DNA from: Cenococcum geophilum
Taxonomy: Eukaryota
Reading direction: 5' to 3'
Length of the DNA: 64,000 bases
Assembly: GCA_050273025.1 (NCBI GenBank)
Contig: CP158635.1
Span: 3,844,001-3,908,000, forward strand
Below are positions 1 to 47,400 of this stretch, piece by piece. Position 1 is the stretch's first letter. Each line of letters begins with the position of its first letter. The translations under genes were made by a program, and so were the position numbers. Below the pieces are notes generated by a model, which had not been told where the DNA came from, ran no database searches, and saw nothing but the letters and a program-made list of their open reading frames with translations.

Positions 1-696
1 TTAAGCTTTTAGCCTTTTGCCTTTATTAAGTGCTAAAGTAGTTCGCTACTTTATTTCTTTTACGTCTTATAAAGCAATAGACATTATATCTAGTGGGGTC
101 TTAATCCCTACTAATATTCCCTATTCTATAGTGGAATTATCCTCTGCCTCTTATATAATATCTCTAAGGTCTATATACTTCTAATAAGCTGCCTTTATTA
201 CCTTATTATTATAAAATGTTTCGCCTACGTTAAATTTATTATCCTTAATATCCAATCTATAAACTAGTTTATTAGTTCCTTTATATTTTGCTAAATATAG
301 CTCCTATAGCTAATAGCTTGCGCTATACTTAGCGTCCTTATAAATTTAGTATACGTTATTATAACAGAACGCAAAACTTTTAATTAAATATTCTTTTATT
401 CCTCGTAGTATATTATCGTCCCTTTATACATATATATTATCTATTAGTCTTATTCCTTTTACTATATAGTAACTCTAACCACTTTTATAGTCTCTAACGT
501 AATAACCTTATTTTCCGTAATTTATATAAGCTCCCTTTTTAAACTATTTTTCTTATTATAGAGTCCGCCTAAACGTCTTCTACTGCTAAGATCCCTAATT
601 TAGCCTCTATTCCTTAGTCCTATAATTACTAGACCCTTAACCTCTAGGTTTTTATAGTTTTTTACTCTATCTTTTATAGGCTTCTTTAGTACTACT
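1..696 (-). mobile_element. Truncated Ty3/Gypsy copy (gag region), same family as G1; continues left of the window
   Basis: 1-696 is collinear with 6658-7353, including the gag zinc-knuckle relic, and stops at the LTR starting at 697. Confidence 0.9.
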
Positions 697-1120
697 TATA
701 ACGGAACCTTATAGTAGATACTACAATAGGCTTATTATTAGGCTAGGTATATAGGTAATGCAAATTAAAGTTAATAACGTAATAATAACTAGTGGAGTGG
801 TTGCCTAATAGATTAACTCTAATTATATTCTAAGAATTACTATAAGGAAGGAACTATCTAGGTAAGGACTAAGGGTCCTTAAATATATAACTATACTCCT
901 ATAAAATCCTTCTTATACGTAATATACGTATACTCTATTTACTCTATTATAGATCCTATAGATCCTATAGATTATATAAATTATATTATATAACCTCGGT
1001 TACTATTCCTTATTATATAGTTTTATTAGCTCTATCTTAGACTATATTTATATTAATTAACTAGCTTCTTCTAACTCTTTTTTAAGTAGTTATAATATTA
1101 TACTTAAAGCGTCCGTAACA
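697..1120 (-). repeat. 3' LTR of G1 (424 bp)
   Basis: Direct repeat of 8233-8655; adjacent to the PPT. Confidence 0.93.
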
Positions 1121-1228
1121 CTATCTCCCTCCTCTTAATTTTTATCCTTAAAGATTTCTAATATCTCTAAGTTATTTACTAAAGGTGTAATATCTATCTA
1201 ATTAATTTAGTTAATATTGTTGCTTATT

Positions 1229-1934
1229 ATACCTAAAGCAATTTCTTCTTCTTTAACTGCTCGTCGTATTCGCACTATTACTGCAATATTATCTCTTAGT
1301 GAGATTATACTATCTCCGTATTCTCGCTACTTAAAAAAGGGGTTAGTTTATATTGCGTTAGTAAACCCTTCTTTATAATAACTATCCTTTTACTTAAAGT
1401 ATACTAAAGTAAATATTTATTTATCCTATAACATTTGCTTTATTTCTAATACTAAATATACGCGACCTATTACTCTTAATAGTTATCTAGTTCCCTAATT
1501 AATTTATCTTAGGGTTTTATATTTAATCTACTGCTATATAGCTAGATAATAAACTATTTATTACTCTAGTAGAGTTATACTAATCCTAAGACGCTAAACG
1601 GGAGGCTACTAATGCTTAGTAATGGGCCCTTAAGTCTTATCTAGCGGTATTTACTTAGTTAATTTATCTTAAGAAGGTACGTAAGAAGATTTATTTTAAG
1701 GAGTAGAAACTTATAAAATAGGGTTTATAAGAACTTAGTAATAAAAAAACGGATTCTTCTCTAACTAAGAAGGAAATAGATCTAAGTAGTTTGGCAACTA
1801 CTTTTCTTAGGTCCCCCTTAGGTAACTTATTTTTTAGTAATCCTTTTTTATTAATGCTACCTAACCTAATTTCTTTTAATACTCCTATACCTTTTTTATA
1901 GTATTTTTTAAATTCTCTAGTAGCTCCTAGGTAG
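1229..1934 (+). pseudogene. Antisense spliced gene in G1: Cys6 zinc-cluster-like plus coiled-coil protein (RIP relic)
   Basis: De-RIPed reading MPKAISSS..PCSRCSKKGLVCIALADPSSRQPSSCSECTKANIRSSCDV. TAT/TAC codons at 1319, 1328, 1349, 1391, 1400 and 1427 give Cx2Cx6Cx13Cx2Cx8C. Intron about 1458-1512, then a helical segment ARLIRLEKVRKK..LVEQGLQEL. Confidence 0.72.
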
Positions 1935-4900
1935 TCTTAGCGTAGCCTATCCACTTAACTTTATACTATATTTTATTATTAATATCTTTATAACTAATAA
2001 TCCTTAAAACTTACTATTTGTCTTTTTTATACCCTCTATATATATCTACCTTATAGACTAGTGGTTTAATATTTCTATATACTAGTTTTAGCATTATAAT
2101 ATACTATATAGAGTAGATCTTTATTTTAGCTAGTAAGTTTAACTTAAATATAACTGGTAAAATCCTTTACTTAATCTTAAAAGGTCCTAGTTTAACGTAG
2201 TTTAACTTCTTACTTAATTATTAACTCTTAAAAATTTTATATAGTAGCCATACTTTATCTCCCTCTTTAAGATCTAGTTCCTTAGATCTCTTAGCATTAT
2301 AGTATCTTTTTATTTTTTATTATACTATCTTTACTAATTCCATAAGGTCTATATAAAGATTTATTAATATCTTTATTCTCTATTTAGCTATACTACTTAT
2401 CTTTTTTGCTTAATATAGCAATAATAATATCCTTAGCTTATATCTATAATTTACCTTAAATAGTAATATGCCTATTCCTTTTTAAGGTATTATATTATAT
2501 ATAAACTATATAACTAGTAATAATAATACCTAATTATTTTATATATAATTAATATAATGTTTTAGATACTGTTCTAGTATCTAATTTAGTCTCTTTATTT
2601 AACCGTCTATCTACAAATAATATACAGTAGAAGTTACTACTCTAACTCCTTATTCCGCTAAGAATACCTCCTAAAATACTACTATAAATCTTAGATCTCT
2701 ATCTAATATAATTTTACTTAATACTCTATATCTTATAAATACTTCTTTAATATAAATTCTAGTAATATCTTCTAGTAATATTTCTTCTATATATGCTATA
2801 AAGTATCCCTACTTTATAAGCTTATTTACTATTACTAAGATTTTATTATAATCTTATCTAGTAATAGGGTCTCTTAACTTTAATAACTTAATAATAAAGT
2901 CCTATAATATAACCTCCTATAGTCTCTCTAGTATTTTAATAGGTTATAGCCCTCTATATAGCTTATACCTTATTAGTTTATTTCTTTAATAATCTAGGTA
3001 CTCTTTTATAACTTTTTATACTAAGCCCTAAATTCCATTAATAATATACTCCTCTTAAAGTCTTAACACTAAGCCTATAGCTTTATTATATTCTTAAGTT
3101 ATTCCCTTATAGAAATCTTCTATAAAGTATTCTGCTATACTTTTTAGAATATATATTACTTCTTAACTTTTATATATATCTATTTATAGATCTTCTAATT
3201 ATACTTTTAGAATCCTTTATACCTAAAAGCTTTCTAGTAACTTATAAACTCTATCTAGTTCTTCTTAAGTTATTATAATTTTTGGATAATTATATCTAAT
3301 CAGTTTATCTATATCTTTTTATAGTAAAGCCCCTAATAGCTTCTTATTATTTTATAGTTTAGCCTTTTAACTTAGAGCATCTACTTATATATTATCTATA
3401 CCCTTAATATACTAAATCTTAAAATAGTATTCTATAAGTATCTCTGCCTATTTAACCTATCTTTAGTTAAGCTCCTTTATTATTAAGAATCCTATTAGGT
3501 TCTTATAATCTATCTTAACTATAAATAGTTTTTCTATACCTTATAAGAATGCTCTCTATTTCTTTAATACTATAACTATACCTAATAACTCCTTATTATA
3601 GATATTATAGTTTAACTCTAGTAGTGTTATCTTCTAACTATAGTATACCACTAGGTGCTATCTATCTTAATACCTTTATATAAAGTACGCCCCTAATATA
3701 TAGTCTAATATATCTATTTCTATAACTATTTCTAGTTCTAGTTAATAGATCTTAAGAATTGGCTCCTAGGTAAATAACTCTTTAACTTTTTTAAAGAGTT
3801 TCTTTTATTCCTCTCCCTATACCTATAGTTCTTCTTTCTTTATTAATTGTATAAATGGTTTAATATCCTTTAACTATTACGCTATAAACCTTTTATAGTA
3901 ATTGCAAAACCCTAGGAATAATCTTAACTATATAACGTTTTCTAGTTTTTACTAATTTACTATAGCCTTAATCTTCTTTAGATCTATACTAAGTTAGCCT
4001 AATTTAATAATAAATCTAATAAAATCGGTTTTCCTAGTAAAGAACTTGCATTTTTTTAATTGCTACTAGTATCTGTTCTTATAGTCTCTTTAAAACCCAT
4101 TTAATATATTCCCCGTATTCTTCCTTAGTTATTAAATAGATAATAATAATATTAAAATATACTATAATAAATTTATCTAAGTATTCTCCTAATATATTAT
4201 TAATACGCTTTTAAAACGTTACTAGTGCGTTTATAAGCCTAAATTATATAACTAATAGTTTATACAGTCCTTTCTTTAACCTAAAGGCTGCCTTTTATTT
4301 ATTACCTTCCTTAATTCTAATCTAATAGTATACCTATCTTAAATCTATCTTTATAAAGATTTACGCATTACCTATTTTATCTTAAATTTCGCTAATTAAG
4401 GGTAAAGGATACCTATCCTTTCTAGTAATGCTATTTAACTATCTATAATTAATATACAGCCTTAGTTTACTATTTTTCTTTAGTATAAATAGTACTGGAT
4501 AACCCGCTAATAACTGCGATAGTCTAATATATCCCTTTCATAGATTTTCTTAAATAAACTCTTTTAATACTCTACCTTCTTTTTTAGTAAGCTTATAGAT
4601 TAGAAAGAACCTTAGACTTATTCCTGGTTTTAATTCTATCTTATAGTCCTATACTATATACTCTAACAGCTTTTCACTCTTTAGTAACTATAGTTTTTTG
4701 CCATACTTATGGTATCTCTTTAGTATATAACTTAAGCCTCGCTTAGTCTCTTTATATATTACTCTAACTTAGTACTATACTATCTTAGCTTATTATCGCA
4801 TTTTATGGCGTTAAGTATTTTTAATATTAACTTAACCTATAACCTAATCGATCCTTAGATTATATTTTTATAACTAAGGCATTCCTAATACTGCCTTATT

Positions 4901-19000: not shown

Positions 19001-22000
19001 GTGTTACTTGTATTAATCCTTATCTTCTAAGTAGATTAAGATGTTATTTAAATAAATAATATATATACGGTTAACTAGTCCCCCCAAGGCTCTATAAATA
19101 TATAATTGGAATGTCGTAGGCGTATTAGCTAGCCCGAAAGGCATTACTAGATACTTAAAGTGGCTGTATTAGGTCTTAAAAGCGGTCTTTTATTTATCCC
19201 CTTCTTTAATACGGAGCTTATAATAGGCGTCTTGTAAATCTAGCTTTATAAAGATCTTCGCCCTAGATAGTTAATCTAGTATTTTACTAACTAGTAGTAG
19301 TGGGTAACGGTTTTTAATTATAATCTTATTAAGACCACGATAGTCTATATATAGCCTTATAGTTCTATTTAGTTTTAGGATAAAGAGGATTAGTACGCCT
19401 AACGGCGACTTACTAGGCTGGATCTACCCCTTTTCCAGTGACCTATTAAGGTACTCCTGTAGAATCTTAAGCTCTTTACGCGAGAGGTTATAAATAGGAA
19501 GGTTTAGTAGTTGTTTGCCTTCTTCTAGATTAATTATATAATTATACTCCGAGTTCTGCGGTAGGACTTTTGCTCTCCTACCTAAAAATACCCTTAGTAA
19601 GTCCCTTAGGCCTACTAGAATATTTAATAAATTAGGGTCGCGTTTATCCTCCGCGTTATTATTAGATAAGTCTTAGAGCTCCCTTAGGATACTTATAGGC
19701 AGTGTTATACGCTATAGCGGTTACTTATATATAGTTACTACCGTATATTAAACCGTTTTATATAGTAGCCAGTAGAGAGCAGGGAACTCCTTAACGCAGC
19801 GTTTAAGGTGCCGTAGTATACTTTCTATATATTGCTTAAGCTAGAGTAACCTATAGCGGTTAAAGTATCTTATAAAATTCTTAAGATCGCCGCCTTTCTG
19901 TAATGTCTCTGCGACCTATCTAGTAGTTCCCTATAGGGTCTCTATTATAGAGGGGTTATTACCTATACTAGGCTCTATACCCATCTTGCTATTAAATAAG
20001 GGTTAGATTTAATACTCCTTTAGGTATAGAGCGTACACTATTTTACCTAGGGCTATATTCTCTAGAATGTCCTTTAGGCTTATTAGTAATATACGCCCTT
20101 TTAAATCTTTATTATTCTACTATTTAAAGGCTCTAGTTTTAAAGCGTATCTTAAAATCTGCTTCTGCTAGCTAAGGGTATCTAAGGATAAGGTTATAACC
20201 TACAAAGTTAGCCGCCTAGAAGGGTTGCGGGCCAACTACCTTAGTGCGGTTATATATGTCGGCTACTAATACTATAAGTTTATAGGCACTATATAGCTTA
20301 ATCTAATACTTATCTAGAAAGCCTATAATAGATTTCTGCCACCTTTATAATAGGATAAGTTTATACTCTTTTACCAAATTATATTATATAAAATTAATTT
20401 CGGCGCCGCTGTTATATAGTGCTTAGAACTGTTATACCTTACCTATAAGGAGTATCATTTCTAATTTAATAGCAATATGGAGAGTCTCTCCTTCTATATC
20501 TTGCCCTAGTTATAGCTAGGAGAGGTCCGCGACTAGGGCTTTTTTTTTTTAGGTTGTTAGTGTAATTGTCGCCCGACTTATTCCCCTAATAAGATTTGCC
20601 TTTAGGGAAATTTCCTTTTAGCTTCTTAGAGTATTCCTATAAGGGTATTAGACGGGTATTAGGTTGGCCTTAGAAATCTTTCCTATTACTTAAGGCTCCT
20701 AACTTTAATTCTTCTAAAGTTCTCCTTAAGAACGGCTTCTTTAAAGCTTAGGTCTGCCCTATATTGCTATTAAAATACCCACGCTTTTAGTTACCCCTTA
20801 GCTTTCTACTAAAAGAGGTCTGGTTCTTTACTATATCCTTAGCGTTTAGAACCGCTTATTCAAAATCCGTATATACAGTGATCCGTAGTAAGGCTTCTAC
20901 GCGTTTTATTTTATTATAAATTGCTAGCTTAATTCTAGCCTAGATAAATCCGATCTTCTCCTTTTTATAAACGCTGCCGTCCTTATTTTTAAATGGCTCT
21001 AAATCTATCTATTAAGTATAAGTTTTTATAAAGTTTATAAACTAGCGGAAGTCTTAACGGTCTAGCTGCGTACTATTCCAAAATTGTTCTATATTATCGT
21101 ATTATATAATATATGGATTTTAGGTCTAACCCTTTAGGAAGGTCTATAGCTATAGCCATATTATAATTTACTCTTTATTAAGTTAATTAAGCGCAATCTA
21201 GTTTAGTGATTGGTTTTTAATCTTACTAATAATCTAGCGTATACGCTCTTTAGTATTATCTCGTATTATTAGCATCTTAAAGAAGTTGTCTACCTTACAA
21301 ACCTAATCGTCTAGCTATTAGGCGTTGGGTCTATAACGAAGTTCTAAACTATTAAAGGCCTTAGCTAGTTAGTCTATATCCTTTTTCCATTTATTATATA
21401 GGTGCCTCTCTAAGTCTTCTATACCTTTTTAGGTAGATACTAAATAGCCCCTAGAAAGCCCTTAGCCTTAACTAGGTTATAAAAGAATTTACCTAGCTTA
21501 GATTAAACCCTACTAGATATAGATTTGCCCTTAAAGGGTTCTAATATATTTATTAGTGGCTTTCTCCCGTATGGCTTCCAAGAGCCTTACGACAGCTTTC
21601 TAATATCCGTCTTAAAGGAGATTGGTATAGGGCTCTTAACCTTCCAAACTTGGGCCTAGGGAAGCTCCTACTATAAAGGTAGTATTAGCACTAGTAGCTA
21701 GTATAGGTTTCCCAATAAGCCTTAGGTCTTAAGTTAGTATTTAGGTTTAATTTCCTAAAGGGGTAGGCCTACTTAGCTTATAAGCAGTCTATATACCGCC
21801 ACTATACTAATTATAGGCTGGTGGTCTTCCGGGAGGGTTCTGGTTAGGTCCCTAGTTAAATATATTAGTATATTTCTCTAGCATTTCTAGCTTAGGGGAA
21901 GATCTTAGGGTTACCTCTAGCGCTTAATCTTCTAATTAGCCTAGGTGGGGCTAGAGGGGTTCCGGTTACTTTCTAGTAGCGTTATAACCATTATAGAGGG

Positions 22001-22185
22001 TATCTGCGTTTTCCTTAGTGGTGACTGTAGGTATATAAGAGTCTTTAAGCTCCTAGAGCATCTAGGTATTAGGGCTTATTTAGCTATCTTACCCAGAGGG
22101 TTGTATTATCGCAATCTCTCGCTATTAGAGGGACTTTTTTACCTTTACGCGACGGCTTTCTATAAGGTATCCGTGGAGTTTCCAT
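16050..22185 (-). pseudogene. gag-pol of G2
   Basis: ATG about 22185. A-run at the gag/pol junction about 20540-20550. Protease about 20410, RT about 18800-19450, RNase H about 18200-18550, integrase about 16900-17500, chromodomain about 16200-16350. Confidence 0.88.
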
Positions 22186-23091
22186 TTAAGTTATTATAAG
22201 ATTTTAAGGGAGAATAGTGGCTATAAATAAAAGATATAAATAAATAATTTAGTCCTTAAAGCCGACTACCCTTCTAAAAAAGAGTAGGAAGGATTTAAAT
22301 ATAAGGGGATCTTGTAAATAGGGGGCTATAAGAACACGATTGTAAAATAAAATAGATTAGTAAGAGAGACGAATCCTTAAGGAGGTAAGGCCTCTAGGAT
22401 TGTAGAGACTATATACTACGGGTATGTACCTCTAGCACGTAACCAGCGACTATTTAAGGGGCGTCTAGGGGTTGTCCTAAGGGCAACCTAAGGTGTTTGC
22501 AATAATATCCCTTACAAGAGCTGTTTTAGTTAATTAAGTACTACCAACTAAACTTAGCCTGGAGTTAACTTAACCTTAATTCTATACTTACTCTTAAGAT
22601 AAGATTGGAAATTATTACTAGCTAAAGCACTATACGGTAGATCCGTACAGTATTTGCAGTAAAAAATGCGGTTTTTACCCTAGAATTCTAGCTCTGAGCC
22701 AGCCTAGGGTAGACAAGCGTGCTCCTATATTTTAATAGCTAAGCGCTTTCTAGTTATTTTCGACTTCGTTTTAATTAATTCCTAAGTTAATAAAGGCGTA
22801 AGAAAAGATAAATCTGCCTTAGAAGCCATTTATTGTACGAATTTATAGATAATAGAAAAATTTTGCGGGTTATTAGTAATAGCGTTAATTAATATTAATC
22901 TTATTAATACTTATTGATAACAATATTGATTAGTAAGATTGATAATAAAATTATTAACAACTACGCTGGTCTATATCTACTTACCTGTCTACATCTGCCT
23001 ACCCATTAGTATCTCCCTATTTATGCCTACCTGTCTATACTACCTTGATTTAATCGATCGATTAAATCGTTTATAGTGTTCGCTAGCTAGT

Positions 23092-23482: not shown

Positions 23483-23714
23483 GCTAGCTGCCGTTCTAGT
23501 GCCTCCCTAGGTAGGGAGGATATAAGGAAAGAAGGAAGGGTAAAAAATAAGGCGGCTATATAGGTAGAGATACGTATAGAGGCTATTAGGAATATAGCGG
23601 GGACCTAATGTAGAGCTTTATATAGAGCCTTATACAGAGCCTTATATAAAGCCTTTAAGTAATAAAACTATATAAGATTATATAAGATTGTATAATTAGT
23701 ATATAACTTTACCT

Positions 23715-23800
23715 AGTCGTCAAAAACGGACTCTGCACCTGTATGTGGTGACGGCTACAAACCTAAGTCTTTAAAGTTTAGACTTAGAGCCAACGCAGAG
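23715..23800 (+). ncRNA. Predicted HDV-like self-cleaving ribozyme
   Basis: P1 AGTCGTC/GACGGCT, P2 CTCTGC/GCAGAG, P3 ACC/GGT, L3 TGTATGT, P1.1 GT/AC, P4 CTAAGTCT/AGACTTAG, J4/2 AGCCAAC. Nucleotide +1 is the first base after the TSD. Confidence 0.8.
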
Positions 23801-24732
23801 ACGTCGCATAGCGTGCGATATGACGTGGTGGAGGTGGTTGCGAGTATTATGGGCGGTGGTGAAAAGTTTTTACATGGGATAGTGAGATCTCAAAAACCAC
23901 CACCGTTGGTACCCCTTACGATAACAGCTACTACACTATCCTCCTATTAAGGCACCTATACGATCCAACATGGATATATAGCATTTAATAGCATCCCCTA
24001 ACCCCCAACGGAAAGCATTAACAACCTCTTATATTAACGTACAAGCGAACGCGAATAGATAAAAATAAGCAAATATACGGCCCCTTCTAACCCCTAGGGC
24101 GATCGCCCGCAGAGCATATGGTTACTCGCCATTAACTATTAAATACTACCTAGCAGCCTGGATAACACCGTACGGTTTTCCTATCTCCTCTTAAGGAGTG
24201 GTGACCCTTAGTAAGGGCCTAGCAACTAGGGCCTAGGTATAAAAAATACCCAGGCATATACACACACGTCCCACTCGCCTTTTAGTATAATAGTAGTTTA
24301 TAGATAAATCCCCCTTACGCCTTTAATAGGCCCTAGGGGGGGGGAGGTATAGCGTATATAGTAATAGTTAGACAAGAGATAGTATATAGGGGATAGCTAA
24401 GATATAGGAAATAATAAGTATAGTAATTAATTGGCAAGGCCTAGCTGGGACATAGTGAACCCCAGCTAGGATAAGCTAGAGAAGGAAGTAGTGGTTCCTA
24501 AGGAGTTCAAAACATCTAAGGAGGAGGACGTAGCTGTAGGCCTGTAGGGCCGCACTACGTGCAAATATGGCAATTTGGGGTTTTTTATCCGACTAAGGTG
24601 GCTCATAGGGTTTTTCCTTCCCCTAACTGCAGGGTTTTCTTCATATAAATTACAAGTCCCCCCCCTGTGACGGAGTAGTCTGCGTGGGCCAGTAGGATCC
24701 GTATTAGACGTTAATTAAAGAGTTACTACTAC
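23715..24732 (+). mobile_element. Non-autonomous non-LTR retroelement (SINE-like or internally deleted LINE), 1018 bp
   Basis: 15-bp TSD TATATAACTTTACCT (23700-23714, 24733-24747), (TAC)n tail, 3' stem-loop shared with 38935-39033; no RT or endonuclease motifs recognised. Confidence 0.88.
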
Positions 24733-24757
24733 TATATAACTTTACCTTAATTGCATA

Positions 24758-24990
24758 TTAAGGAATATATAGTTAGCTTTTAAAGTTGCCAAGTAGGTTA
24801 ACTGCATATTATTTAACTTTTAAATATATTAAGTAGGTTAACTGCGGGTTAAGGAATATATAGTTAGCTTTTAAAGTTGTCAATTAGGTTAACTGCGTGT
24901 TATTTAACTTTTAAATATATTAAGTTAGTTAATTACGTGTTAAGTTAGTCAATTACGTATCAAGCTGGTCAATTTGCATGTCAATTACGC
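24758..24990 (+). repeat. Subterminal repeats of element A
   Basis: About 91-bp tandem duplication (TTAAGGAATATATAGTTAGCTTTTAAAG...) followed by short AAGTTAGT(T/C)AATTACGT units. Confidence 0.75.
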
Positions 24991-38136: not shown

Positions 38137-38934
38137 AGTTTACCCTATTTTCTTACTAGATAAGTTATAAAAAGCTATAAGTAACCTATTACCCAGGTAG
38201 AAGAACAAGCCTTTCCTACCAATTTAACTTAGTGGTAATAATAAATAGGAAGTTAAGGAAATACTAGTATATAAGCTAGTATAAGGAGTGCTAAAATACC
38301 GTGTTTAATAAAAGGGCTATAACCCTGACCTAACCTAGTACCCTACTTAGAACTTTATAGGCTGCCCCTAGAAGCTTAAAGAGTTTTATAATTAATACCC
38401 TAACTTACCTAAACCCCTAAAGTACCTAGATAAGTAAATAGAATATTAATATAATAAAAATAATAAGTTACCGGAAGAGTATAGAGATAAGAACGCCCTA
38501 AGGCCTAAGGAACGAAGCCTACTATAATATACGGCCACCTAGATTTGCGCGTTATATAAGGCCTTTAGATATCTAGGAACTTTAACCGCCGGTTAAAGTT
38601 CTCTAATTAGCTAGATCTTTGCTAAAAGTTTTAGTAGCTACCCTTTCTACTTTAGCGCTTCTACATGATCTACGGTTGCCTTATATACTTAGTTTAAATA
38701 TACTTACGTCTCCTTTTTTTTTTTTTAGTTTTACTTTATTTTTAATAAAGCCTAAGGGTAGGCTTTCTTTTAAAAGGGGGGGGGGTAATATTACGGCACC
38801 GTAACGCGTAACCTAGACAGGGAGCCTAGTTAGGGGTTTGGCTAAGGACATGGCGTTATAACGCGTATATGTTACGCCTCTACCTCCTATATATACCTCT
38901 CCTCTTCTTCTTAGCTTAGTATCTTCGTAATATA

Positions 38935-39033
38935 ATAATAATTCATTGCTTAACGTCCGATTCGGATCCCTATTGGGCCCACGCGGACTACTCCTTATGT
39001 ACATGTGGGGAGAAAACTCTATTTGAGAAAACC
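38935..39033 (-). mobile_element. 5'-truncated non-LTR insertion (99 bp) in the 3' LTR of G3
   Basis: 15-bp TSD TATCTTCGTAATATA (38920-38934, 39034-39048). Absent from the three other LTRs of the family. Short ATTATTAT tail; 3' 60 nt similar to 24672-24730. Confidence 0.85.
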
Positions 39034-42000
39034 TATCTTCGTAATATAGCATTCTATAAGCTTCGGTTTAGAGGCATTTATATAAGCCGTAATAATACTT
39101 ACTCTTAGTTAAGCTCTAATAGATAAGATTGCTGTAGATTGTAAAGTTATTCTCTTTAGTAGATTTATTTATAATAATAATCTTATATCCTAACTAGGAG
39201 CTAAAATCTTTATTATTTATAAATAATCTATTAATAAATATAAAGAGCTTAGCGGTAGGAAAATTAATAGGTATATAGAGTAGTCCCTAATTAAGATGGT
39301 TTATTTACTAAAAAAGATATTTATTTAGGGCAAAGATGTTATTTTTAGTTAGTTCTTAGTGTTAGGTAGTAATAGAGAAATTAAATAAAGCCTTAGGTTA
39401 ATAAATAAAAGTAATATAAGCTCTATAAGCGCGTTGCTCTATATATCTTTACTTTAAAGAATTAACGTTAATAATATTAATCTTCTTGCCTTAACCCTTC
39501 TAGCGTAAAGTAATAGAATCCTTATTTAGGGAGAGGATGCATTTATTAAAAAGTAATAGTATTATTAAATTAAGCTTTTCCTTTAGCTTTACTATAAGAT
39601 TTACCTTTACTAGCTTATTTTCTTTAAGAGCTAAGAATTAATCGTCTTCTAAGATAATTATATTATTAGTTTATATGCCAATAATTCTAAATAGGGTTCC
39701 TATAGTTATAATAAGGAAGTATAAATTAAATATAGAAGTAGTTATTAAAAGTTTCTTTTTATTGTGCTTACTATAAGTAGCCTACTAATAAGTTCCTATC
39801 TCTGTAATTCTATATAATAGCTTAAGTATAACTATAATTATATCTTTAGGATATTAGTGGCGAATTTACTCTAAAAGGTATACTAATATTAAGCGCTAAA
39901 GGTACGTCTCTAATTGGGTGTAGGCCTAGGTAATATCTTATAAATAAACCGCTATTCTATTATTTATTAAGAAGGAGGCTAGCGTAATAATAACTTACTA
40001 ACTAGCTTATTAAATTATAGGAGATTATATAAGAATTACCTTCTTACTATTATTGTTATAACCTTAGATAATAAGCCTTAATTTCTTAAATAGGGCATTA
40101 ATAGCTTTACCTTTAATCTTATTAACTATTCTTAACTTAAAGATACGAACTTTATTAAATTTAGTAAGGTTATACTTCTTAAATTTAAAGACTTCTCTCA
40201 TAATAAGACTATTAATCTCCTACTTATTAAATACTTAAAAAGGAGCTCTAGGGGTTATAATATAACCTTCCTTTTAGAGCTGTTTTATAAGCTTAAAGTT
40301 AGCCTTCTCCTTAGCTAACTTTATTCTTAATGGCGGTAACAAATTGCTCTTTAAAATTAATAAGGTATTAGCGATTTTATAATCCCTTTAGACGACCTCT
40401 ACCGCGTTATAGTTGCGGCATATCTACTATAATTATATTAGAATTGTAGTCGCCTTCTAGAGTACGTTAACTGTAGTTCTCTTCTAGGGTATTTTTTAGG
40501 GTATTCTGCAAAGGCTTAAAACTATTATCTTTATAGTAAGGCTTAATAATAGTTAAACGGAATTAAGTGGGTCTATAAGGCATCTAAATAGTATAAGTTT
40601 AACTATTAATTATAATAAGTTAATATAGGCCTAACTACCCTCCCTTTTTACGCTATATATATACCTTAGACTAAAGTAGCAGATTAAGCGTAGTTAAGGT
40701 ATTTAGGCTATTTCTTATTCCTAGTGTATTATTAACTTAGCGTATAGTATAGAGATGTCGTACCTTCTTTATTACCTTATAAATAGGCTTGGCTTATTAT
40801 ATAATAGAGATAGATAGTAGAGAATTATTAGTTATTTAAGGGTAGGCGCTAAAGACTAGTAAGATAGGTATAAGTTTATCCGGGCTAGCGGAATTATTAA
40901 TAGCTTTAATAGCTATTTATAAGGTAAGTTTTTTACTAGTATCCTCTAGTTTTAAAGAGATAATATTATATATGCGGCGTAATAGCGTATAATATTACTC
41001 TACTTTTCTAATACTATTATATGCCTTAATAGGGACTTCCTTAACCTTAATTGCTATTACCTTTATCTATTATTAAAACTCTATAGATAAGAAGTTCTTT
41101 CCTATATTATAGATAATTTAATTAAGGGGTCTTAGGTAAATATTAATCTAGTATAATTAAAGGGTATTTTATATATTCTTAGCTAATATATCCTTTAAGA
41201 AACGTGCGGCTTAAAAGGAGGTTAAAAGTTAATAACTTAGAGTACTAGCTTACCGCTAAGATATATAACGTTAACAATAATATAGAAGTTAAAGTTGTAG
41301 CTATTTTTAAGGGTAAACTTAAATCGGCTAGGGGACTTCTAGTTTATTTAGTAGTAATAGTAGTACCTTATAAGATGCTTAATTACCCTAACCTTAACTT
41401 TATAGCCTACTTACTAAAGGACCCTAAGTAATTAATAAATAGATAGGTAGCTAAAATAACGGTATAGTTGGCGTAACTCTAACTTAGTTAAGTAGCTTTA
41501 AGTAATACTCTTTTCTAGTTAATAAAGGAGTAATTAGGAGTAACCCTACTTATATATAACGGGTACCTAACTATCTCCCTAAACGAGTATATTCTTAAGG
41601 TTATTAAGCTTAACGCCTAATTAATTTATATTTCTAATATAAAATAGAAATGGGGTATTTATAGGAATAATATAGAAAGTAATATACCCTAAGGGGGTTT
41701 AGACTCTAATTATACTAAAAGAAATTATAGTACCCTTACTAAAATAAATTGTATATTAGCCTGCTATTAAATAGTTAATCTAAATAGAGTTATTAAGCTG
41801 CTAAAGGGCTTAAATTTAAGGTTCTCCTACTATAGATACTTCTACGGCTCTAGTATCTAGTATAATACTATAGAAGATATTCGCCGAGTATTTATTATTA
41901 AAGGAGAATATAAAACTCTCCTTTAGCTTATTAAAGATATTTAACTTTATAATAGAATAGAGCGTAGATTAGTTATTAAGAATAGCGACGGTTTATATAC

Positions 42001-43708
42001 TATTTACCTTACTATACTTAGTAAAGTATTAGTTAGGGGAGTAGTTTTTAATTTCTATATCTATAAGGAGCTATTTAGCCTTATTAACCTTACCTTTAAG
42101 ATTTTCTATACCTTTATATTAAACCAGAAAGCTTTAAAAGTAAGCTATAGTAACCTTATAATTTCCAACATTTCTTATACTTTAGCAAAACTTATTATAT
42201 ACCTCCTTTCGCTTATTAAAAAAATAACTAGTTAACTCGTAATTTAGCTTCTTATAAATGTAGCACTTTTTTTAGTAATTATTTTAAAATAAACCTCTAT
42301 AAGGACCTTTACGATTACCTTATAATTAACGTTAATTATACCCTCTACTATATTACCTACTACGGCCACTATATATTTAATTAGTTTAGTTATAATTATA
42401 TTAGTTAGGCGGGTCGGTTAAAGTAGGTTAAAGTTAGGCGTTAAATTGCTATACTTTTTAAGAGCGTAGAGCGGTGCTAATAGAAGATCTTAATTAGGTA
42501 TATACTTCTTTATAAGTATTTACAGGATTAAAGAGAGTAAGGTTATATTCTTTAACACCTTAGTATACGCTAATAACTTAATTATATAAGCTAAAATCCT
42601 GATAATATAATTTAAATAGACCACGCTAAATTATCTAAAGTTAATTAAAGAGCTTTTAAAGATAATCGAGCCGAGGAATACCTAAGTTTATAGTAATAAT
42701 TCTTAAAAAGGTAATTTCTCTCCATTCTAATATATACTGCTACTTCTTCTCTTCTATTTTAAAGTAGTATCTTAACTTATATATTATACGGTTAAAGTTA
42801 TATCCTTTTTCTACTAAACAATTATAATAAAAGGTACTAGCTCGGCCCCTAAGTATAATAGAATAGGCGTTATAGTATTAATTAGACTTTATTTCTACCT
42901 TTTAGCAATAATTATAAAAGATACGCAATTTTAAATTTTAAATTTTATATAATTTCCCGCTAAACTTCCTCTTCTAATCTAAATAGAGCTTCGTAAGCTC
43001 TATAAGTAATTTTAAAATGCCTTTAATTTAAGATTAAGATAAAGGAGGTAGGAGTTATATTATAGGCTGTAGTAGGGATGTAGGTCTAGTTAGTGGAGTT
43101 TAAAGGTTATTAAATTATAAAGTAATAGGATCCTATACCTGCTCTTATTAGGGTATAGTATCTAATATTAAAGTTATAGGTTAAATTAGATATAGAGGAG
43201 TTAAAGGTAGAGGTAGATTTGTCTTTAGAAGTATATTACTTAAATTCTATTATAAGTTAAGCTTCCTTATAGTGCGTAGTTGGTGCTTAATCTCTTATAG
43301 AGTCCATTTATGCTCTTTTTTTGCTCTAATAACCTACTCCTAAATATTATCTCTAATAGTACCCCCATCTATAGGTATAAATACTCTATACTTATATAAA
43401 AAGTTATAGAAGTCTTATATAATATCCTTCTTTATAGGAGTTTATATTCCCTTTATCCATTTAATAAAGTCCTCCCTTATATAGTATTATAGCATAATAT
43501 CGTTATATTTGCTGTCTTTATAGTATACTATATAGTATAATAAGAATCTATTTAAATCTTTTTAATTAATATCTTTAAGGTTAATTATATTGGTTTTCTA
43601 TATCTCTAGGTTAATATCATCCTTATACTTCTTCGGGTAGGTTAACGCCATAATAGCTATTATTAAAGGTTGTTTAATACATTTTTTTTAAGGGAAATAA
43701 AGGTTATT

Positions 43709-43874
43709 TGTAAGCTTTGCAGTGTGTGGGAATTAAACGAGCAACTTGATTGTAAATCTATGGGTATTAAGTGGAATATATACATGAAATAGTAGCTGAA
43801 ATAGGAACAGTGATCTGCAATCAATATATAGGGTGGCGTTGAGGCTGTCTCGGCAGCACCCGTAGTTGGTTATA
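43709..43874. mobile_element. Solo LTR (166 bp) in the 5' leader of C1
   Basis: TGTAA...TTATA termini with 5-bp TSD TTATT; less RIP-altered than its flanks. Confidence 0.65.
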
Positions 43875-44411
43875 TTATTTAATGTGTAGTTAGGTAGTAA
43901 TTATAATCCTATAGTTTGCGAAGGTACGCTAAAGGTATTAAGATAGTTGTTTTAACGCGTTTTAGACGTTAACTTAGGACCCTAGGTTTAGTAACACTTT
44001 TAACCTAAAGTACTTAACTAAATCTTTATAAACGTGGTTATTCTATATAATATATGCAACTTAGTATCTCCTAGTACTTAGTAATACTTCTATTACTAGT
44101 TTTTTATAAGTTTAAGGTAGTATAGTATCGCCGGGATCTATTCCATATAAGCGTATATAGCACCCCTATACGAGACTATCTCTTCTATTTAAAAACCTAG
44201 CTGCTCTATAGTTAACTATATATTTAACCACTAATTAGTATTAGCTATATAGGGTAACTTACTAATAACAACTACTGGAGTAGGTTATAGTGATATTGGT
44301 TAATATATTTCTTATTAATTGGAATAAGAAAGGGCGAGGAGCTTAAGACTCCTCGCCACGCTAGTGCTGCGGCAATATGTAATAACTGCTTACCTTATTC
44401 CTAATAGATAC

Positions 44412-44487
44412 GAACTTTAAAGACAAAGATAGGCGGCGGCAATATATAGGCAGGACGCAGTAATTAAGCTGCTATAACTGTATAAGA
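44412..44487 (+). pseudogene. Ankyrin-repeat host gene fragment 3 (3' end)
   Basis: Across the C1 TSD the sequence reads KGADT|NFKDKDRR; an AVIKLL segment follows after a small frameshift or deletion. Confidence 0.65.
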
Positions 44488-47400
44488 ACCTATCTTAGTA
44501 ATATATAAAAGGGGTTAATATAAAATCTACTTCCTTCTAGTACCGATTAAGGCTTAATAGCTTTATAGAAACTAGACGTTATAATATAGTAGTATAACTC
44601 AGTCCCCTAAATTTAATGTTTAGATTAGGGATAGCTTTAAGGATATATAGGCCTTTATTGGTTTAAAGCCCTAGAGTTTTTTATAACTCTAATAGGCAGT
44701 AACGTAGGTGATAGGGTTATAATGGTAGGTATAGTTATAACAGTTTAGAATATTAAAACTGCGTATAGACGAAATTTATTAGTATGCCGACTGTTATAAC
44801 CCTATTGCCTACATTATTATTATTTATATTAATTTAATAATATAAGTAGGCTATATCCAGGGGTATGAAATACGTGTAGTATTGTATACTCTTTTAGATA
44901 GTAGTGACTGTCAATTCTATTAAGGTAGACTACGTAGTCTATATACTAACGCGTCCTCCCCCCTAATTAGTTATAAGTAAGTAGTTAGTATACTAAACGC
45001 GTAGACACGCGTTTGGTATACCAGGTGCTGTAATTATATACTAGCGGCACTTAAAGATAGACCCACTTGTATATAGCCTCCGTAATTACCTTATTAAAAC
45101 TATAAAATATAAAAGAAATATATAGGAAATCCCTCCTAAGGTGCCTTCTAGGCTGCCTTCTAAACGGTGCTTTAAGCTGGCCGTAAGTCCTACTTACGGC
45201 CTGTAAAATAAACCGTACGGCCTTCTGACGGACTATAAATAAGCTATACAGCCTTCTAACGGGCCGTAAATGAACTGTAAGTGCTCCATTAGTCTTATTC
45301 CACCCATTCTATAACCTTTAGATTAAGCTTATTTATATTAATTAGGGTTTTAAGAGCTTAGCATAGTTTTACCTTAGTTATAGCATCTACTAGGTTGTCT
45401 TCGCCGCTAATCTATTTAACCTCTATAATCTTATGTCGTTTATAGGCCTAATATAAGCATATTAGGTCGACTATAAGCCTCTTCTCTTATATTATACCTA
45501 GTTTAACTAGGCAGTTATAAAGGGACTTTAAATCAGTATATAAAACTAGGGGTAACTGCTCCAATTATAGAATCTTCTAGATTGTTAATTTAATTATAGC
45601 TGCTATATTAAAGCTATAAGCTAGTATATATAGTTTAGAAGCTAGTATACTGCGGGTTACTTATTTGCATTTAATTAAAGACTAATATAGTATATTTACA
45701 TTCTAATTACGGTCTGTAAGTATAACTATAAAGCCAATTTATAATAATAGGTCTCTATTATTGGCGAAGGAGGCGTCCGTAAATACTAGTACGTTAAGGG
45801 AATTTAGGCCTAGTAGTACAAAAGTAAATCCCCTTACTTTATTATTAATTTGCCACTAAATGCGCTTATTAAGCTGCTTAATATTTTCCTCTTGCGGATC
45901 TATTACCTGGGCCATAAAGGATAAATTAAAGGTAGATTTGGGTTAACAGACTATAGCAATATAGGCGCCTCTTACACGCTATGCAACGTATTAATCCTTT
46001 ATATTTACGGTCTTATAGGTCTCTTTATAGGAACTAGTAAGGTCTATAGGCTTTACTATAATAAGCCTTAGGTTTTAAGCTTGGCGTTTTTAAGTTAGCT
46101 AAATTAGGTTGCCCTTTTATGTAATTAAGTCTCCATTAAACTTAATTAGAGTTTACTCAGTTAACTACTCTCGTGGCTTTGCTAAGAACTTTACCTCTTA
46201 TAGTTTAGTCTCTTTAGCGTCCGCAAAAGTCCGGTTTACTAAGAAGAGGGTATTATCTATTTCTAGTCCAATAATACTAAGGCCGTTTAATAGGGTGTAT
46301 AGGAGGCAGGGGTTGTAGGTTAACTGTTTCATTTTAAGTTTACTAATATAATACTAGTAATACATTTTAAACTAGTGGTTTCTAGCTTCTAGCACTCCGT
46401 AAAGGGGTTTTATAACCTATAAAATTATTCTTAATTACGAATTAAGCTTAAGGGGTAGTTATATTAAGATATCTCTACTTAGGTAGGTATTAGACTGCAC
46501 ATAGGCTTGCGAGATATTCTGTAAGTAGAGGGCTACGGGTTTAGTTTACTATAGTCTAGGCATAAGTGCAAGTATAATCCGTTAACTAACCCATTAAATT
46601 ATAGGCGATTATATAAGAACTAAGTCCTTTCCCTAGTTATTATAAGCTTATATAATAAGCCTTAATTTTTTTAAAGGCTTTATTAGTACTAGGGTGCTTA
46701 ATTTTATTAATAAAGTGTAAGTTAAATATACGGACGCCTTGCGGAACGTCTCTTTCCATTATAGCCGTAAAAACACCCTTTTTAAGTAGTCTATTAATTT
46801 TCTTGCGTTATAAGTCCGTAAAAAGTGTTTTCTATACTAGAACTAATATATCTGTAGGTAGAAGTTGCCTTACGGATGTACCTGTAAAGTTTAGGTAATT
46901 CTTTATTACGGGGTTCTTAGTTATAGGGTGCTTTTAGGGGCGTCCTTAACCGCGCTTTATAGTAGGTTTAATAGGTTTCTAGGGGACTTCTAAAGTAGGT
47001 AGGGGTGCTTTTAGTTTGTTTGGTTTAGTAGGTGCTTCTAGTTTATCTAGTTTAACGGCATAGGTATTTTTAGACCAAAAGTAGGGTTTTATAAACGTGC
47101 TTTTAAAGTTAATTAGTCTGCTAGGAAGTTATATATAGCACATTTCGTCTTCTACAGCTAGTAGACGATAAGGTCTAGTCTAGTTGCCGCTTTTATACTA
47201 TATAAAGACTTTAGAATTAAGCGGGAGGTTATAAACTAAGGTTATATTAGGTCGGTTGCAGTAATATAGGGCGCTATTAATAGCTTATTTAGCCCATAAT
47301 TTAACTATTTTAGCTATTACCTTCTGTATTACAGCTGCTTATTCTATAATAGATGGGGTAGGAGGGCCTAGGTTACTTATCCTTAAGTAAGCTCCATAAA

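What the first reader, a model, noticed from the sequence alone, without database searches (positions are those of the whole stretch)
23715..24732. 1-kb ribozyme-headed non-autonomous retroelement architecture
Seen: ribozyme head, further hairpins (ACGTC..GACGT 23801-23826; GGTGGT..ACCACC about 23855-23904; CCTAGCTGGG..CCCAGCTAGG 24440-24470), a possible ORF relic from about 23921 with only RIP-type stops, a 3' stem-loop, a (TAC)n tail and a long TSD. I see no RT, endonuclease or tRNA/5S-derived head. Inference: a SINE-like family defined by a ribozyme rather than a Pol III promoter, mobilised by a LINE RT. It resembles retrozymes conceptually but is HDV-based.
Basis: partly seen in the sequence, partly recalled or inferred. 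Interest (0 to 1): 0.8.

Follow-up and report, generated by a model that had tools for sequence, protein, structure and literature searches.

The report
Ribozyme-headed fungal SINE-like retrotransposon
This 1-kb stretch is one decayed copy of an abundant, highly transcribed, non-coding jumping element of a fungus that starts with a hepatitis-delta-type self-cutting RNA fold and borrows the tail of a neighbouring LINE to get copied, a design already known in trypanosomes and flies.

Summary
Window 23715-24732 is a 1,018-bp insertion with a 15-bp target-site duplication and a (TAC)3 tail. Of 55 copies with a detectable tail, 53 are 886-1,056 bp, and 38 of 48 have exact duplications of 10 bp or more.

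The first 86 nt fit the nested double pseudoknot of HDV-like ribozymes. The predicted cut site is the element's first base. Across 98 copies, 98.4% of pair cells are paired. A strict descriptor found 50 family heads and only 2 other sites in 1.82 Mb. No Rfam model matches, and self-cleavage is untested.

The last ~60 nt and the tail are shared with a ~5.5-kb endonuclease/reverse-transcriptase LINE. That LINE's own 5' end is different.

No ORF, protein domain or tRNA-like head was found, so the "ORF relic" is not supported. One public RNA-seq run shows strong one-strand expression of the family.

NARTc/SIDER elements in trypanosomatids and R2 and R2/R1 SIDEs in Drosophila are built the same way. 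I found no fungal example in print. Verdict: new member of a known kind, moderate interest.

The parts
23700..23714 (.). 5' copy of the target-site duplication (tatataactttacct)
   Evidence: Identical 15-mer at 24733-24747. Family-wide, 38 of 48 copies have an exact TSD of 10 bp or more that abuts the first base, against 1 of 2,256 mismatched control pairs.
23715..23800 (+). HDV-like ribozyme fold. P1 23715-21/23750-56; J1/2 23722-30; P2 23731-36/23795-23800; P3 23737-39/23747-49; L3 23740-46; P1.1 23741-42/23757-58; P4 23763-70/23780-87; J4/2 23788-94 (agccaac).
   Evidence: Hand model. In 98 copies, 98.4% of cells are paired, against 27-45% when partners are slid. G.U closes P1 in 94 of 98 copies. 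P4 covaries and varies in length. The strict descriptor gave 50 family hits and 2 others in 1.82 Mb. No Rfam match. Cleavage not tested.
23801..23826 (+). Hairpin just behind the ribozyme
   Evidence: The inner stem (23806-08/23814-16) is paired in 48-49 of 49 copies. Three of the five outer pairs are kept in only 2-13 of 49 copies; 23804/23823 and 23805/23822 hold in 49 and 47 of 49.
23854..23905 (+). 8-bp stem closing a 36-nt loop
   Evidence: 93% of cells are paired in 49 copies. Pair 23858/23901 occurs as GU, GC and AU. RNA reads of a relative skip 23872-23950 (514 reads).
24440..24470 (+). 10-bp hairpin
   Evidence: 85% of cells are paired. Pair 24447/24463 occurs as AU, GU and GC.
24672..24723 (+). 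3' module shared with the partner LINE (ggagtagtctgcgtgggcc...gacgttaa...), with stem 24678-82/24705-09
   Evidence: Aligned with 7 LINE 3' ends. The outer stem is paired in 49 of 49 SINE copies. The LINE's C-G pair is U-A in the SINE, a compensatory change.
24724..24732 (+). (TAC)3 tail
   Evidence: Family tails are (TAC)n, or (TAT)n as expected after C-to-T change.
24733..24747 (.). 3' copy of the target-site duplication
38935..39033 (-). 5'-truncated copy (about 99 bp) of the partner LINE's 3' end with a (TAT)n tail, flanked by tatattacgaagata (39048-39034 and 38934-38920)
   Evidence: A RIP-tolerant local alignment scored 164 against 50-60 for controls and covers only the LINE's last ~105 nt.

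Best explanation
The segment is one transition-mutated (RIP-like), dead copy of a high-copy, ~1.0-kb, non-coding, non-autonomous non-LTR retrotransposon of a filamentous fungus.

Proposed cycle:
1. A copy is transcribed, probably by RNA polymerase II, from an upstream promoter or by read-through. Inferred.
2. The first 86 nt fold into an HDV-like nested double pseudoknot and cut the RNA just 5' of G1. Every template RNA therefore starts at the element's first base. The fold is shown; catalysis is inferred.
3. The ~60-nt 3' stem-loop module and the (UAC)n tail copy the 3' end of a ~5.5-kb LINE that encodes an APE-type endonuclease and a reverse transcriptase. The LINE protein binds this module and copies the RNA into TA-rich targets by target-primed reverse transcription, leaving 13-15-bp duplications. 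The shared module, tail and TSD are shown; trans-mobilisation is inferred.

The partner LINE's own 5' end has no such ribozyme. The head is therefore a separate module, not a leftover of that LINE.
For: Insertion anatomy: a 15-bp TSD and a (TAC)3 tail.

Family:
- 53 of 55 copies with a tail are 886-1,056 bp. The two long ones are copies split by nested insertions.
- 49 full copies measure 939-1,050 bp and have a median 88% identity to their consensus; the window copy has 83%.
- An exact TSD of 10 bp or more (median 14) abuts G1 in 38 of 48 copies, against 1 of 2,256 shuffled pairs.
- Sequence upstream of G1 is unrelated in all 98 aligned copies.

Ribozyme:
- All helices of the HDV-like topology are present, with no spacer between P2 and P3 or between P3' and P1'. 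L3 is 7 nt, P1.1 is 2 bp, and J4/2 is AGCCAAC.
- 98.4% of 2,479 pair cells are paired, against 27-45% with slid partners.
- G.U is the first P1 pair in 94 of 98 copies.
- P4 shows 3 pairs and 32 cells with changes on both sides, plus length variants of 5-8 bp.
- A strict descriptor gave 50 family heads and 2 other sites in 1.82 Mb. One of those two is a second, different sequence with the same architecture, and it too sits exactly at a repeat's 5' edge.
- The defining features of the class were taken from passages of PMC4908430.

LINE partner:
- RVT_1 matches at E 3.5e-12 and 2.1e-14 in two copies read through stops.
- An intact 1,026-aa homologue, 71% identical, carries Exo_endo_phos and RVT_1.
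- Full copies are about 5.56 kb.
- The 3' ~60 nt and the tail are shared, with a compensatory C-G to U-A change in the stem.
- LINE TSDs are 13 bp and TA-rich.

Expression: in RNA run X21, 13,760 of 9,287,142 records read lay on the stretch. About 98% came from one direction, with depth up to 4,210 against 55. Coverage was confined to the element's bins.
Against: - No Rfam family, including the HDV-like ones, matches the window copy, six less mutated copies or the second candidate, even at E up to 10.
- Self-cleavage was not assayed.
- Covariation is limited to P4. Columns 24-55 of the alignment were fixed up to transitions by the search pattern, so their conservation is partly by construction.
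- Nested-only folding predicts P2 and P4 but replaces P1/P3 with two small alternative hairpins. Its energies are unremarkable, with z from +0.08 to -2.1.
- A loose descriptor hits 23 start sites in the window's 128 kb.
- RNA molecule ends pile up at 23724/23725 (553 of about 1,100), which is 9-10 nt inside the element and not at 23715. The window copy differs from the family at 3 of its first 8 bases, and the reads come from other copies (10,691 of 13,760 are under 90% alike). The true RNA 5' end therefore cannot be read.
- No whole genome was available. A LINE carrying this head may exist unsampled.
Confidence: 0.75

Rival explanations
1. It is a LINE-dependent non-autonomous retrotransposon, but the 5' fold is not catalytic. 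The 5' end is set by transcription initiation at an internal promoter, and the structure serves RNA stability, protein binding or promoter function.
For: No Rfam HDV-like match. RNAfold offers a competing nested fold for the P1/P3 region. Covariation occurs only in P4. RNA read ends are not at G1. In L1Tc the same 77 nt act as both promoter and ribozyme (abstract of PMC3383444 in the listing).
Against: The complete HDV-like topology, with a G.U at the very first base of the element, is unlikely by chance: there were 2 non-family hits in 1.82 Mb. A second, unrelated sequence with the same architecture also sits exactly at a repeat's edge. The 5' junctions carry no extra bases in 38 of 48 copies, whereas both full LINE copies carry 10 and 16 extra nt.
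Confidence: 0.15
2. It is a short internally deleted derivative (SIDE/NARTc type) of an autonomous LINE that carries the same ribozyme head but was not sampled.
For: This is how NARTc, RIME and R2 SIDEs arose (PMC3185411 passages; PMC3414825 abstract). No whole genome could be searched. Another ribozyme-headed repeat of unknown nature exists in the same metagenomes.
Against: None of the 55 heads with a detectable downstream tail leads into a coding element. L022, whose copy breaks off after about 190 nt, and L040 show none either. The only LINE sharing the 3' end starts GAGCTCTTGC and shows no head similarity, no descriptor hit and no Rfam hit. The SINE body shows no BLAST similarity to that LINE beyond the last ~50 nt.
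Confidence: 0.08
3. It is a retrozyme-like element that spreads through circular RNA.
For: It is non-coding, ribozyme-bearing, about 1 kb and highly expressed.
Against: There is one ribozyme per copy, at the 5' end only. There are no terminal direct repeats. The TSD is 13-15 bp and the tail is (TAC)n, as with LINE-type integration. No back-spliced ('goes back') RNA joint appears among the joints shown. The defining features of retrozymes are recalled, not read here.
Confidence: 0.02

Closest known systems
NARTc/L1Tc, RIME/ingi and SIDER elements of trypanosomatids
   Same: These are non-autonomous non-LTR elements whose first ~77 nt are an HDV-like ribozyme that cleaves at +1, and they are mobilised by a LINE (PMC3185411 passages; PMC4035085 passages).
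   Different: There the head is shared with the autonomous LINE, because the elements are truncated versions, and it doubles as a promoter. Here the partner LINE's 5' end is unrelated. The host is a fungus, the body is ~1 kb of unknown origin, and the tail is (TAC)n.
R2 SIDEs and R2/R1 hybrid SIDEs of Drosophila
   Same: They join a 5' HDV-like ribozyme to the 3' end of a LINE. In the hybrids the ribozyme comes from one element and the 3' end, machinery and 14-bp TSD from another (PMC3414825 abstract). This is the same logic as here.
   Different: They are rare, inserted site-specifically in rDNA and co-transcribed with rRNA. This family is dispersed in TA-rich sites and very abundant. The source of its ribozyme is unknown.
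HDV-like ribozymes at the 5' ends of autonomous non-LTR retrotransposons (R2, RTE, Baggins, L1Tc)
   Same: Same fold and the same presumed role: freeing the element's RNA from a co-transcript (PMC6765202 passages).
   Different: Those elements encode their own RT. This one encodes nothing. Its ribozyme matches no Rfam family.
Classical SINEs, including fungal Mg-SINE with the MGL LINE (recalled, not verified)
   Same: A LINE-derived 3' end, trans-mobilisation and TSDs. I recall that Mg-SINE and MGL of Magnaporthe also end in (TAC)n, but searches found no text to confirm it.
   Different: There is no tRNA/5S/7SL head. The length is 1 kb. Conserved runs of four or more T on the sense strand near the 3' end would stop RNA polymerase III; this rests on established knowledge of Pol III termination.
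Retrozymes and ribozyme-bearing SINE-like elements of Schistosoma
   Same: Non-coding retroelements that carry a small self-cleaving ribozyme (PMC6765202 passages; PMC8501958 abstract in the listing).
   Different: Those carry hammerhead or twister ribozymes. Retrozymes have LTR-like repeats and a circular RNA stage (recalled). Here there is a single HDV-like ribozyme and LINE-type integration.

Membership tests
HDV-like self-cleaving ribozyme (structural class) | Nested double pseudoknot: P1, P1.1, P2, P3 and P4, with P1.1 of 1-2 bp (PMC4908430 passages) | tested here: met
   All helices can be drawn. 98.4% of cells are paired in 98 copies, against 27-45% when slid. The strict descriptor gave 50 family hits and 2 others in 1.82 Mb.
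HDV-like self-cleaving ribozyme (structural class) | Cleavage site at the first nucleotide of P1 (PMC4908430 passage) | tested here: inconclusive
   The first nucleotide of P1 is the first base of the element in all 98 aligned copies, and the TSD abuts it in 38 of 48. This is what cleavage there would give. RNA ends could not be mapped to the base, and no assay was run.
HDV-like self-cleaving ribozyme (structural class) | P1 of 6-7 bp, a short J1/2 spacer and P2 of about 7 bp (PMC4908430) | tested here: met
   P1 is 7 bp, J1/2 is 9-10 nt and P2 is 6 bp.
HDV-like self-cleaving ribozyme (structural class) | Catalytic core from L3 and J4/2, with a cytosine in J4/2 and a U...G pair within L3. The core is from PMC4908430. 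The U/G pair in loop III is from the PMC3386971 abstract in the listing. The exact positions are recalled. | tested here: met
   J4/2 is AGCCAAC, at least 90% conserved. L3 is UGUACGU, with U at position 1 and G at position 6 invariant in 98 copies. Which C would be catalytic cannot be told.
HDV-like self-cleaving ribozyme (structural class) | Self-cleavage activity | not testable with these tools
   Needs a transcription and cleavage assay.
Curated Rfam HDV-like families | Covariance-model score at or above the gathering threshold | tested here: not met
   No HDV-family match at E up to 10 on the window copy or on six less mutated copies. It is not a member of any curated family.
Non-autonomous non-LTR retrotransposon mobilised by a LINE | No coding capacity; TSDs; simple-repeat tail; 3' end shared with an RT-encoding LINE in the same genome | tested here: met
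   no domain or ORF; TSDs; tails; LINE and shared 3' module.
SIDE/NARTc type (internally deleted LINE) | Both the 5' and the 3' end shared with the autonomous element | tested here: not met
   The 3' end is shared. The LINE's 5' end is unrelated. An unsampled LINE cannot be excluded.
Classical SINE | Head derived from tRNA, 5S or 7SL with an internal Pol III promoter | tested here: not met
   ARAGORN found nothing in the window stretch or in 5 loci. Rfam found no tRNA, 5S or 7SL match.
Retrozyme | Hammerhead ribozymes in terminal direct repeats and a circular RNA intermediate (recalled) | tested here: not met
   There is a single HDV-like fold at the 5' end only, LINE-type TSD and tail, and no back-joining RNA joint among those listed.

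The most novel reading that the evidence does not exclude
In this fungus the HDV-like ribozyme is a portable 5' module that takes the place of a promoter. At least two unrelated repeats carry their own versions of it: this 1-kb element, and a second one seen in L043 and L010. This element pairs the ribozyme with the tail of a LINE that has no ribozyme itself. That would define a fungal class of 'ribozyme SINEs' that exploit host read-through transcription at one end and a LINE's reverse transcriptase at the other. The class has reached very high copy number and about 0.15% of the records read from one RNA-seq run.
Probability: 0.35. Interest if true: 0.6.

Novelty: new member of a known kind. 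Interest (0 to 1): 0.5.

Why it matters
It extends ribozyme-headed non-autonomous retrotransposons to fungi. A 2026 review-style statement lists them only for plant and metazoan genomes (PMC13725137 passage).

It offers a clean natural case in which the 5' processing module and the 3' RT-recognition module clearly have different origins.

The family is abundant, expressed and found in soil and root metagenomes. The fold is missed by all Rfam models, so it would be a useful new seed for ribozyme searches and for fungal repeat annotation.

It does not open a new kind of mechanism.

Tried and rejected
- Whole-genome copy count: no genome is held for this window. I used a metagenome scan instead.
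- Rfam at gathering and at E up to 10 found nothing relevant. I searched the window, the element, six cleaner copies, the LINE 5' end and the second ribozyme candidate.
- Pfam on the stretch upstream of the second tail in the window (38931-44930, minus strand) found nothing. A RIP-tolerant local alignment then showed that only ~105 nt of the LINE are present there.
- BLAST of two-letter (purine/pyrimidine-collapsed) sequences was useless. The reversed control was as noisy as the real comparison.
- Candidate long versions of the element did not hold up. L077 (6.6 kb) and L056 (3.9 kb) are copies split by nested insertions. L022 and L040 are broken copies with no RT.
- The ORF relic has no support.
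- The exact RNA 5' end is inconclusive. Reads come from other copies, and the window copy is mutated at 3 of its first 8 bases.
- Run shares in soil, root and fungus metagenomes were laid only for X6.
- Literature: three searches for HDV-like ribozymes in fungal retroelements found none. Ruminski 2011 and Webb 2009 are not held, so fungal cases in them or in their supplements cannot be excluded. The recalled (TAC)n tail of Mg-SINE/MGL could not be confirmed.
- Earlier notes of this scan hold nothing on this genome or family.
- The second ribozyme-headed repeat (1.8 kb seen in L010) has no Pfam hit, so its nature is unknown.

Full report
**What is at the coordinates**

The sequence shows a 1,018-bp insertion at 23715-24732. 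It lies between two copies of tatataactttacct (23700-23714 and 24733-24747) and ends in tactactac. The whole window is AT-rich, 23-41% G+C in 2-kb steps. It holds a single ORF of 150 aa or more, as expected of a repeat-rich, transition-mutated fungal region.

Within the window the element is unique. Only its last 60 nt recur, at 38994-38933 on the minus strand with 79% identity.

**It is a family**

No whole genome is held. I therefore scanned public metagenome contigs with a 32-nt pattern from the head, written so that C/T and G/A changes are tolerated. The loci carry 125 heads.

- Of 55 copies in which a 3' end could be found, 53 are 886-1,056 bp.
- The two long ones (3.9 and 6.6 kb) are ordinary copies split by nested insertions.
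- Forty-nine full copies measure 939-1,050 bp. Their median identity to the majority consensus is 88%; the window copy has 83%.
- Sequence upstream of the first base is unrelated in all 98 distinct aligned heads.
- An exact duplication of 10 bp or more (median 14) abuts the first base in 38 of 48 copies. This happens in 1 of 2,256 mismatched upstream/downstream pairs.
- Most duplications begin with TA. Tails are (TAC)n or (TAT)n.

Public DNA runs give the same picture. Thousands of contig pieces were laid at 80% identity or more (7,886, 4,892 and 5,228 in X1, X5 and soil run X6). Differences are dominated by transitions; in X1, 195 places show a transition and 23 a transversion.

**The head**

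Drawn by hand, 23715-23800 has every element of the HDV-like nested double pseudoknot:

- P1: 7 bp (23715-21 with 23750-56)
- J1/2: 9 nt
- P2: 6 bp (23731-36 with 23795-23800), directly followed by P3
- P3: 3 bp (23737-39 with 23747-49)
- L3: 7 nt
- P3' runs directly into P1'
- P1.1: 2 bp, between L3 positions 2-3 and the two bases after P1'
- P4: a hairpin (23763-70 with 23780-87)
- J4/2: agccaac

The class is defined by this topology, by cleavage at the first nucleotide of P1, and by a core built from L3 and J4/2 (PMC4908430, passages and Results).

In the less mutated family consensus P1 reads GGCCGUC/GACGGCU. The element therefore begins with a G that forms a G.U pair, in 94 of 98 copies. 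On alignment A1, 98.4% of 2,479 pair cells are standard pairs, against 27-45% when the 3' partners are slid by 1-3 columns. Changes on both sides occur only in P4 (3 pairs, 32 cells). P4 also exists in versions of 5 to 8 bp with different loops.

Specificity was checked in two ways:

- A deliberately loose descriptor is unspecific. It gave 23 start sites in the window's two strands.
- A strict descriptor requires few G.U pairs, Watson-Crick P3 and P1.1, a 6-bp P2 and a 5-bp P4. It found 50 family heads and only 2 other sites in 1.82 Mb.

One of those two other sites is a different sequence with the same build:

- P1 GCCCGCG/CGCGGGU
- P2 CUGCAC/GUGCAG
- P3 GCG/CGC
- L3 UCCACGU
- P1.1 CC/GG
- J4/2 GCCAA

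It lies exactly where an AT-rich flank turns into a GC-rich repeat (L043), and a 91% identical copy lies in L010. It shares the single-stranded core letters with the first ribozyme, while all helices differ in a compensating way.

**Against the ribozyme reading**

- No Rfam model matches any of these sequences, even at E up to 10.
- The central 32 nt were fixed up to transitions by my search pattern, so their conservation proves little.
- Nested-only folding finds P2 and P4 but prefers two small alternative hairpins to P1/P3, with unremarkable z-scores of +0.08 to -2.1.
- Cleavage itself is untested.

**The tail and the partner**

Four 3' ends in the loci, and the one at window 38933, stand without the 1-kb body. 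They belong to a longer repeat.

- Read through its stops with X, it gives RVT_1 at E 3.5e-12 (L012) and 2.1e-14 (L023).
- An intact 1,026-aa homologue, P0001, is 71% identical. It carries Exo_endo_phos, Exo_endo_phos_2 and RVT_1.
- Five copies share a 5' end, GAGCTCTTGC, with unrelated flanks. Two complete copies are about 5.56 kb.
- Their TSDs are 13 bp and TA-rich. They carry 10 and 16 extra nucleotides between the TSD and the conserved start. The 1-kb element shows no such extras.

The last ~60 nt (GGAGUAGUCYGCGUGGGCC...GGAUCCG.AUYRGACGUUAA) and the tail are shared between LINE and SINE. They fold into a stem-loop whose outer stem is paired in 49 of 49 SINE copies. A C-G pair in the LINE is U-A in the SINE. 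One SINE subfamily even has the LINE's exact terminal ...AAGCAATGAAT.

The LINE's 5' end shows no similarity to the ribozyme head, no descriptor hit and no Rfam hit. The SINE body matches the LINE only in the last ~50 nt.

In the window, the LINE is present only as a 99-bp 5'-truncated copy (39033-38935, minus strand) with its own 15-bp TSD.

**No coding capacity and no Pol III head**

- Pfam found nothing in six frames of the window copy or of a copy 92% identical to the consensus.
- The consensus has no convincing ORF.
- ARAGORN found no tRNA-like sequence.
- Rfam found no tRNA, 5S or 7SL relic.
- Conserved runs of four or more T on the sense strand near the 3' end would stop RNA polymerase III. 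This rests on established knowledge. Pol II transcription or read-through is therefore inferred.

**Expression**

In RNA run X21, 13,760 of 9,287,142 records read lay on the 1,451-bp stretch. They came almost wholly from one direction, with depth up to 4,210 against 55. In most stranded libraries that direction means sense RNA.

Depth is 0.24 in the bin before the element, 502-4,210 in the bins from 23696 to 23989, and 2.3 after it. The reads come from other copies: 10,691 are under 90% alike, and 11,201 lie only partly on the stretch. Sharp edges are therefore expected for any repeat.

The pile of ends at 23724/23725 cannot be taken as the RNA's true start. The window copy differs from the family at 3 of its first 8 bases.

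**Comparison with what is known**

Ribozyme-headed non-autonomous non-LTR elements are established.

- NARTc shares its first 77 nt, an active HDV-like ribozyme, with L1Tc (PMC3185411 passages). RIME and the SIDERs follow the same plan (PMC4035085 passages).
- Drosophila has R2 SIDEs. It also has R2/R1 hybrid SIDEs, in which an R2 ribozyme sits directly upstream of an R1 3' end and the R1 machinery does the copying, leaving 14-bp TSDs (PMC3414825 abstract).
[quoted passage not shown] It also notes that hundreds of intergenic HDV-like ribozymes lie between varying upstream and conserved downstream sequence (PMC6765202 passages).

The present element works like the hybrid SIDEs. It differs in host kingdom, in dispersed TA-rich targets instead of rDNA, in very high copy number, in its 1-kb body of unknown origin and in a ribozyme outside all curated families.

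Three full-text searches found no fungal case. A 2026 paper lists such links only for plants and metazoans (PMC13725137 passage). The two primary surveys, Webb 2009 and Ruminski 2011, are not held.

**Verdict**

This is a new member of a known kind and of moderate interest.

Noticed in passing
L043:1-122 (minus strand) and L010: about 9868 downwards (minus strand): A second, different sequence fits the strict HDV-like descriptor: P1 GCCCGCG/CGCGGGT starting with a G.U pair, P1.1 CC/GG, L3 TCCACGT, J4/2 GCCAA. It sits exactly at the 5' edge of another repeat. The 1.8 kb that follow in L010 have no Pfam hit, and Rfam does not match.
   Followed up: partly
window 38920-39048 (minus strand): A 99-bp 5'-truncated copy of the partner LINE's 3' end with a (TAT)n tail, flanked by a 15-bp duplication tatattacgaagata. 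It is a typical dead-on-arrival LINE insertion.
   Followed up: yes
L023:7614-7650 and L042:9840-9872: Both full-length LINE copies carry extra nucleotides (10 and 16 nt) between the target-site duplication and the conserved 5' start GAGCTC. The ribozyme-headed element's junctions are exact.
   Followed up: partly
window 23872-23950: 514 RNA reads of run X21 join 23871 to 23951. The expressed relatives therefore lack, or have replaced, 79 nt that include most of the loop closed by the 23854-23905 stem.
   Followed up: no
window 20499-22516 (+): A 2-kb repeat (82% identity) also lies next to a truncated LINE in L012 and occurs in L056. It is another family of the same repeat-rich genome and was not characterised.
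   Followed up: no
window 23500-23714 and 24748-24950: Both flanks of the insertion are themselves high-copy repeats in the DNA runs, with short tandem motifs and many back-joins among contigs. The element inserted into older repeat DNA.
   Followed up: no
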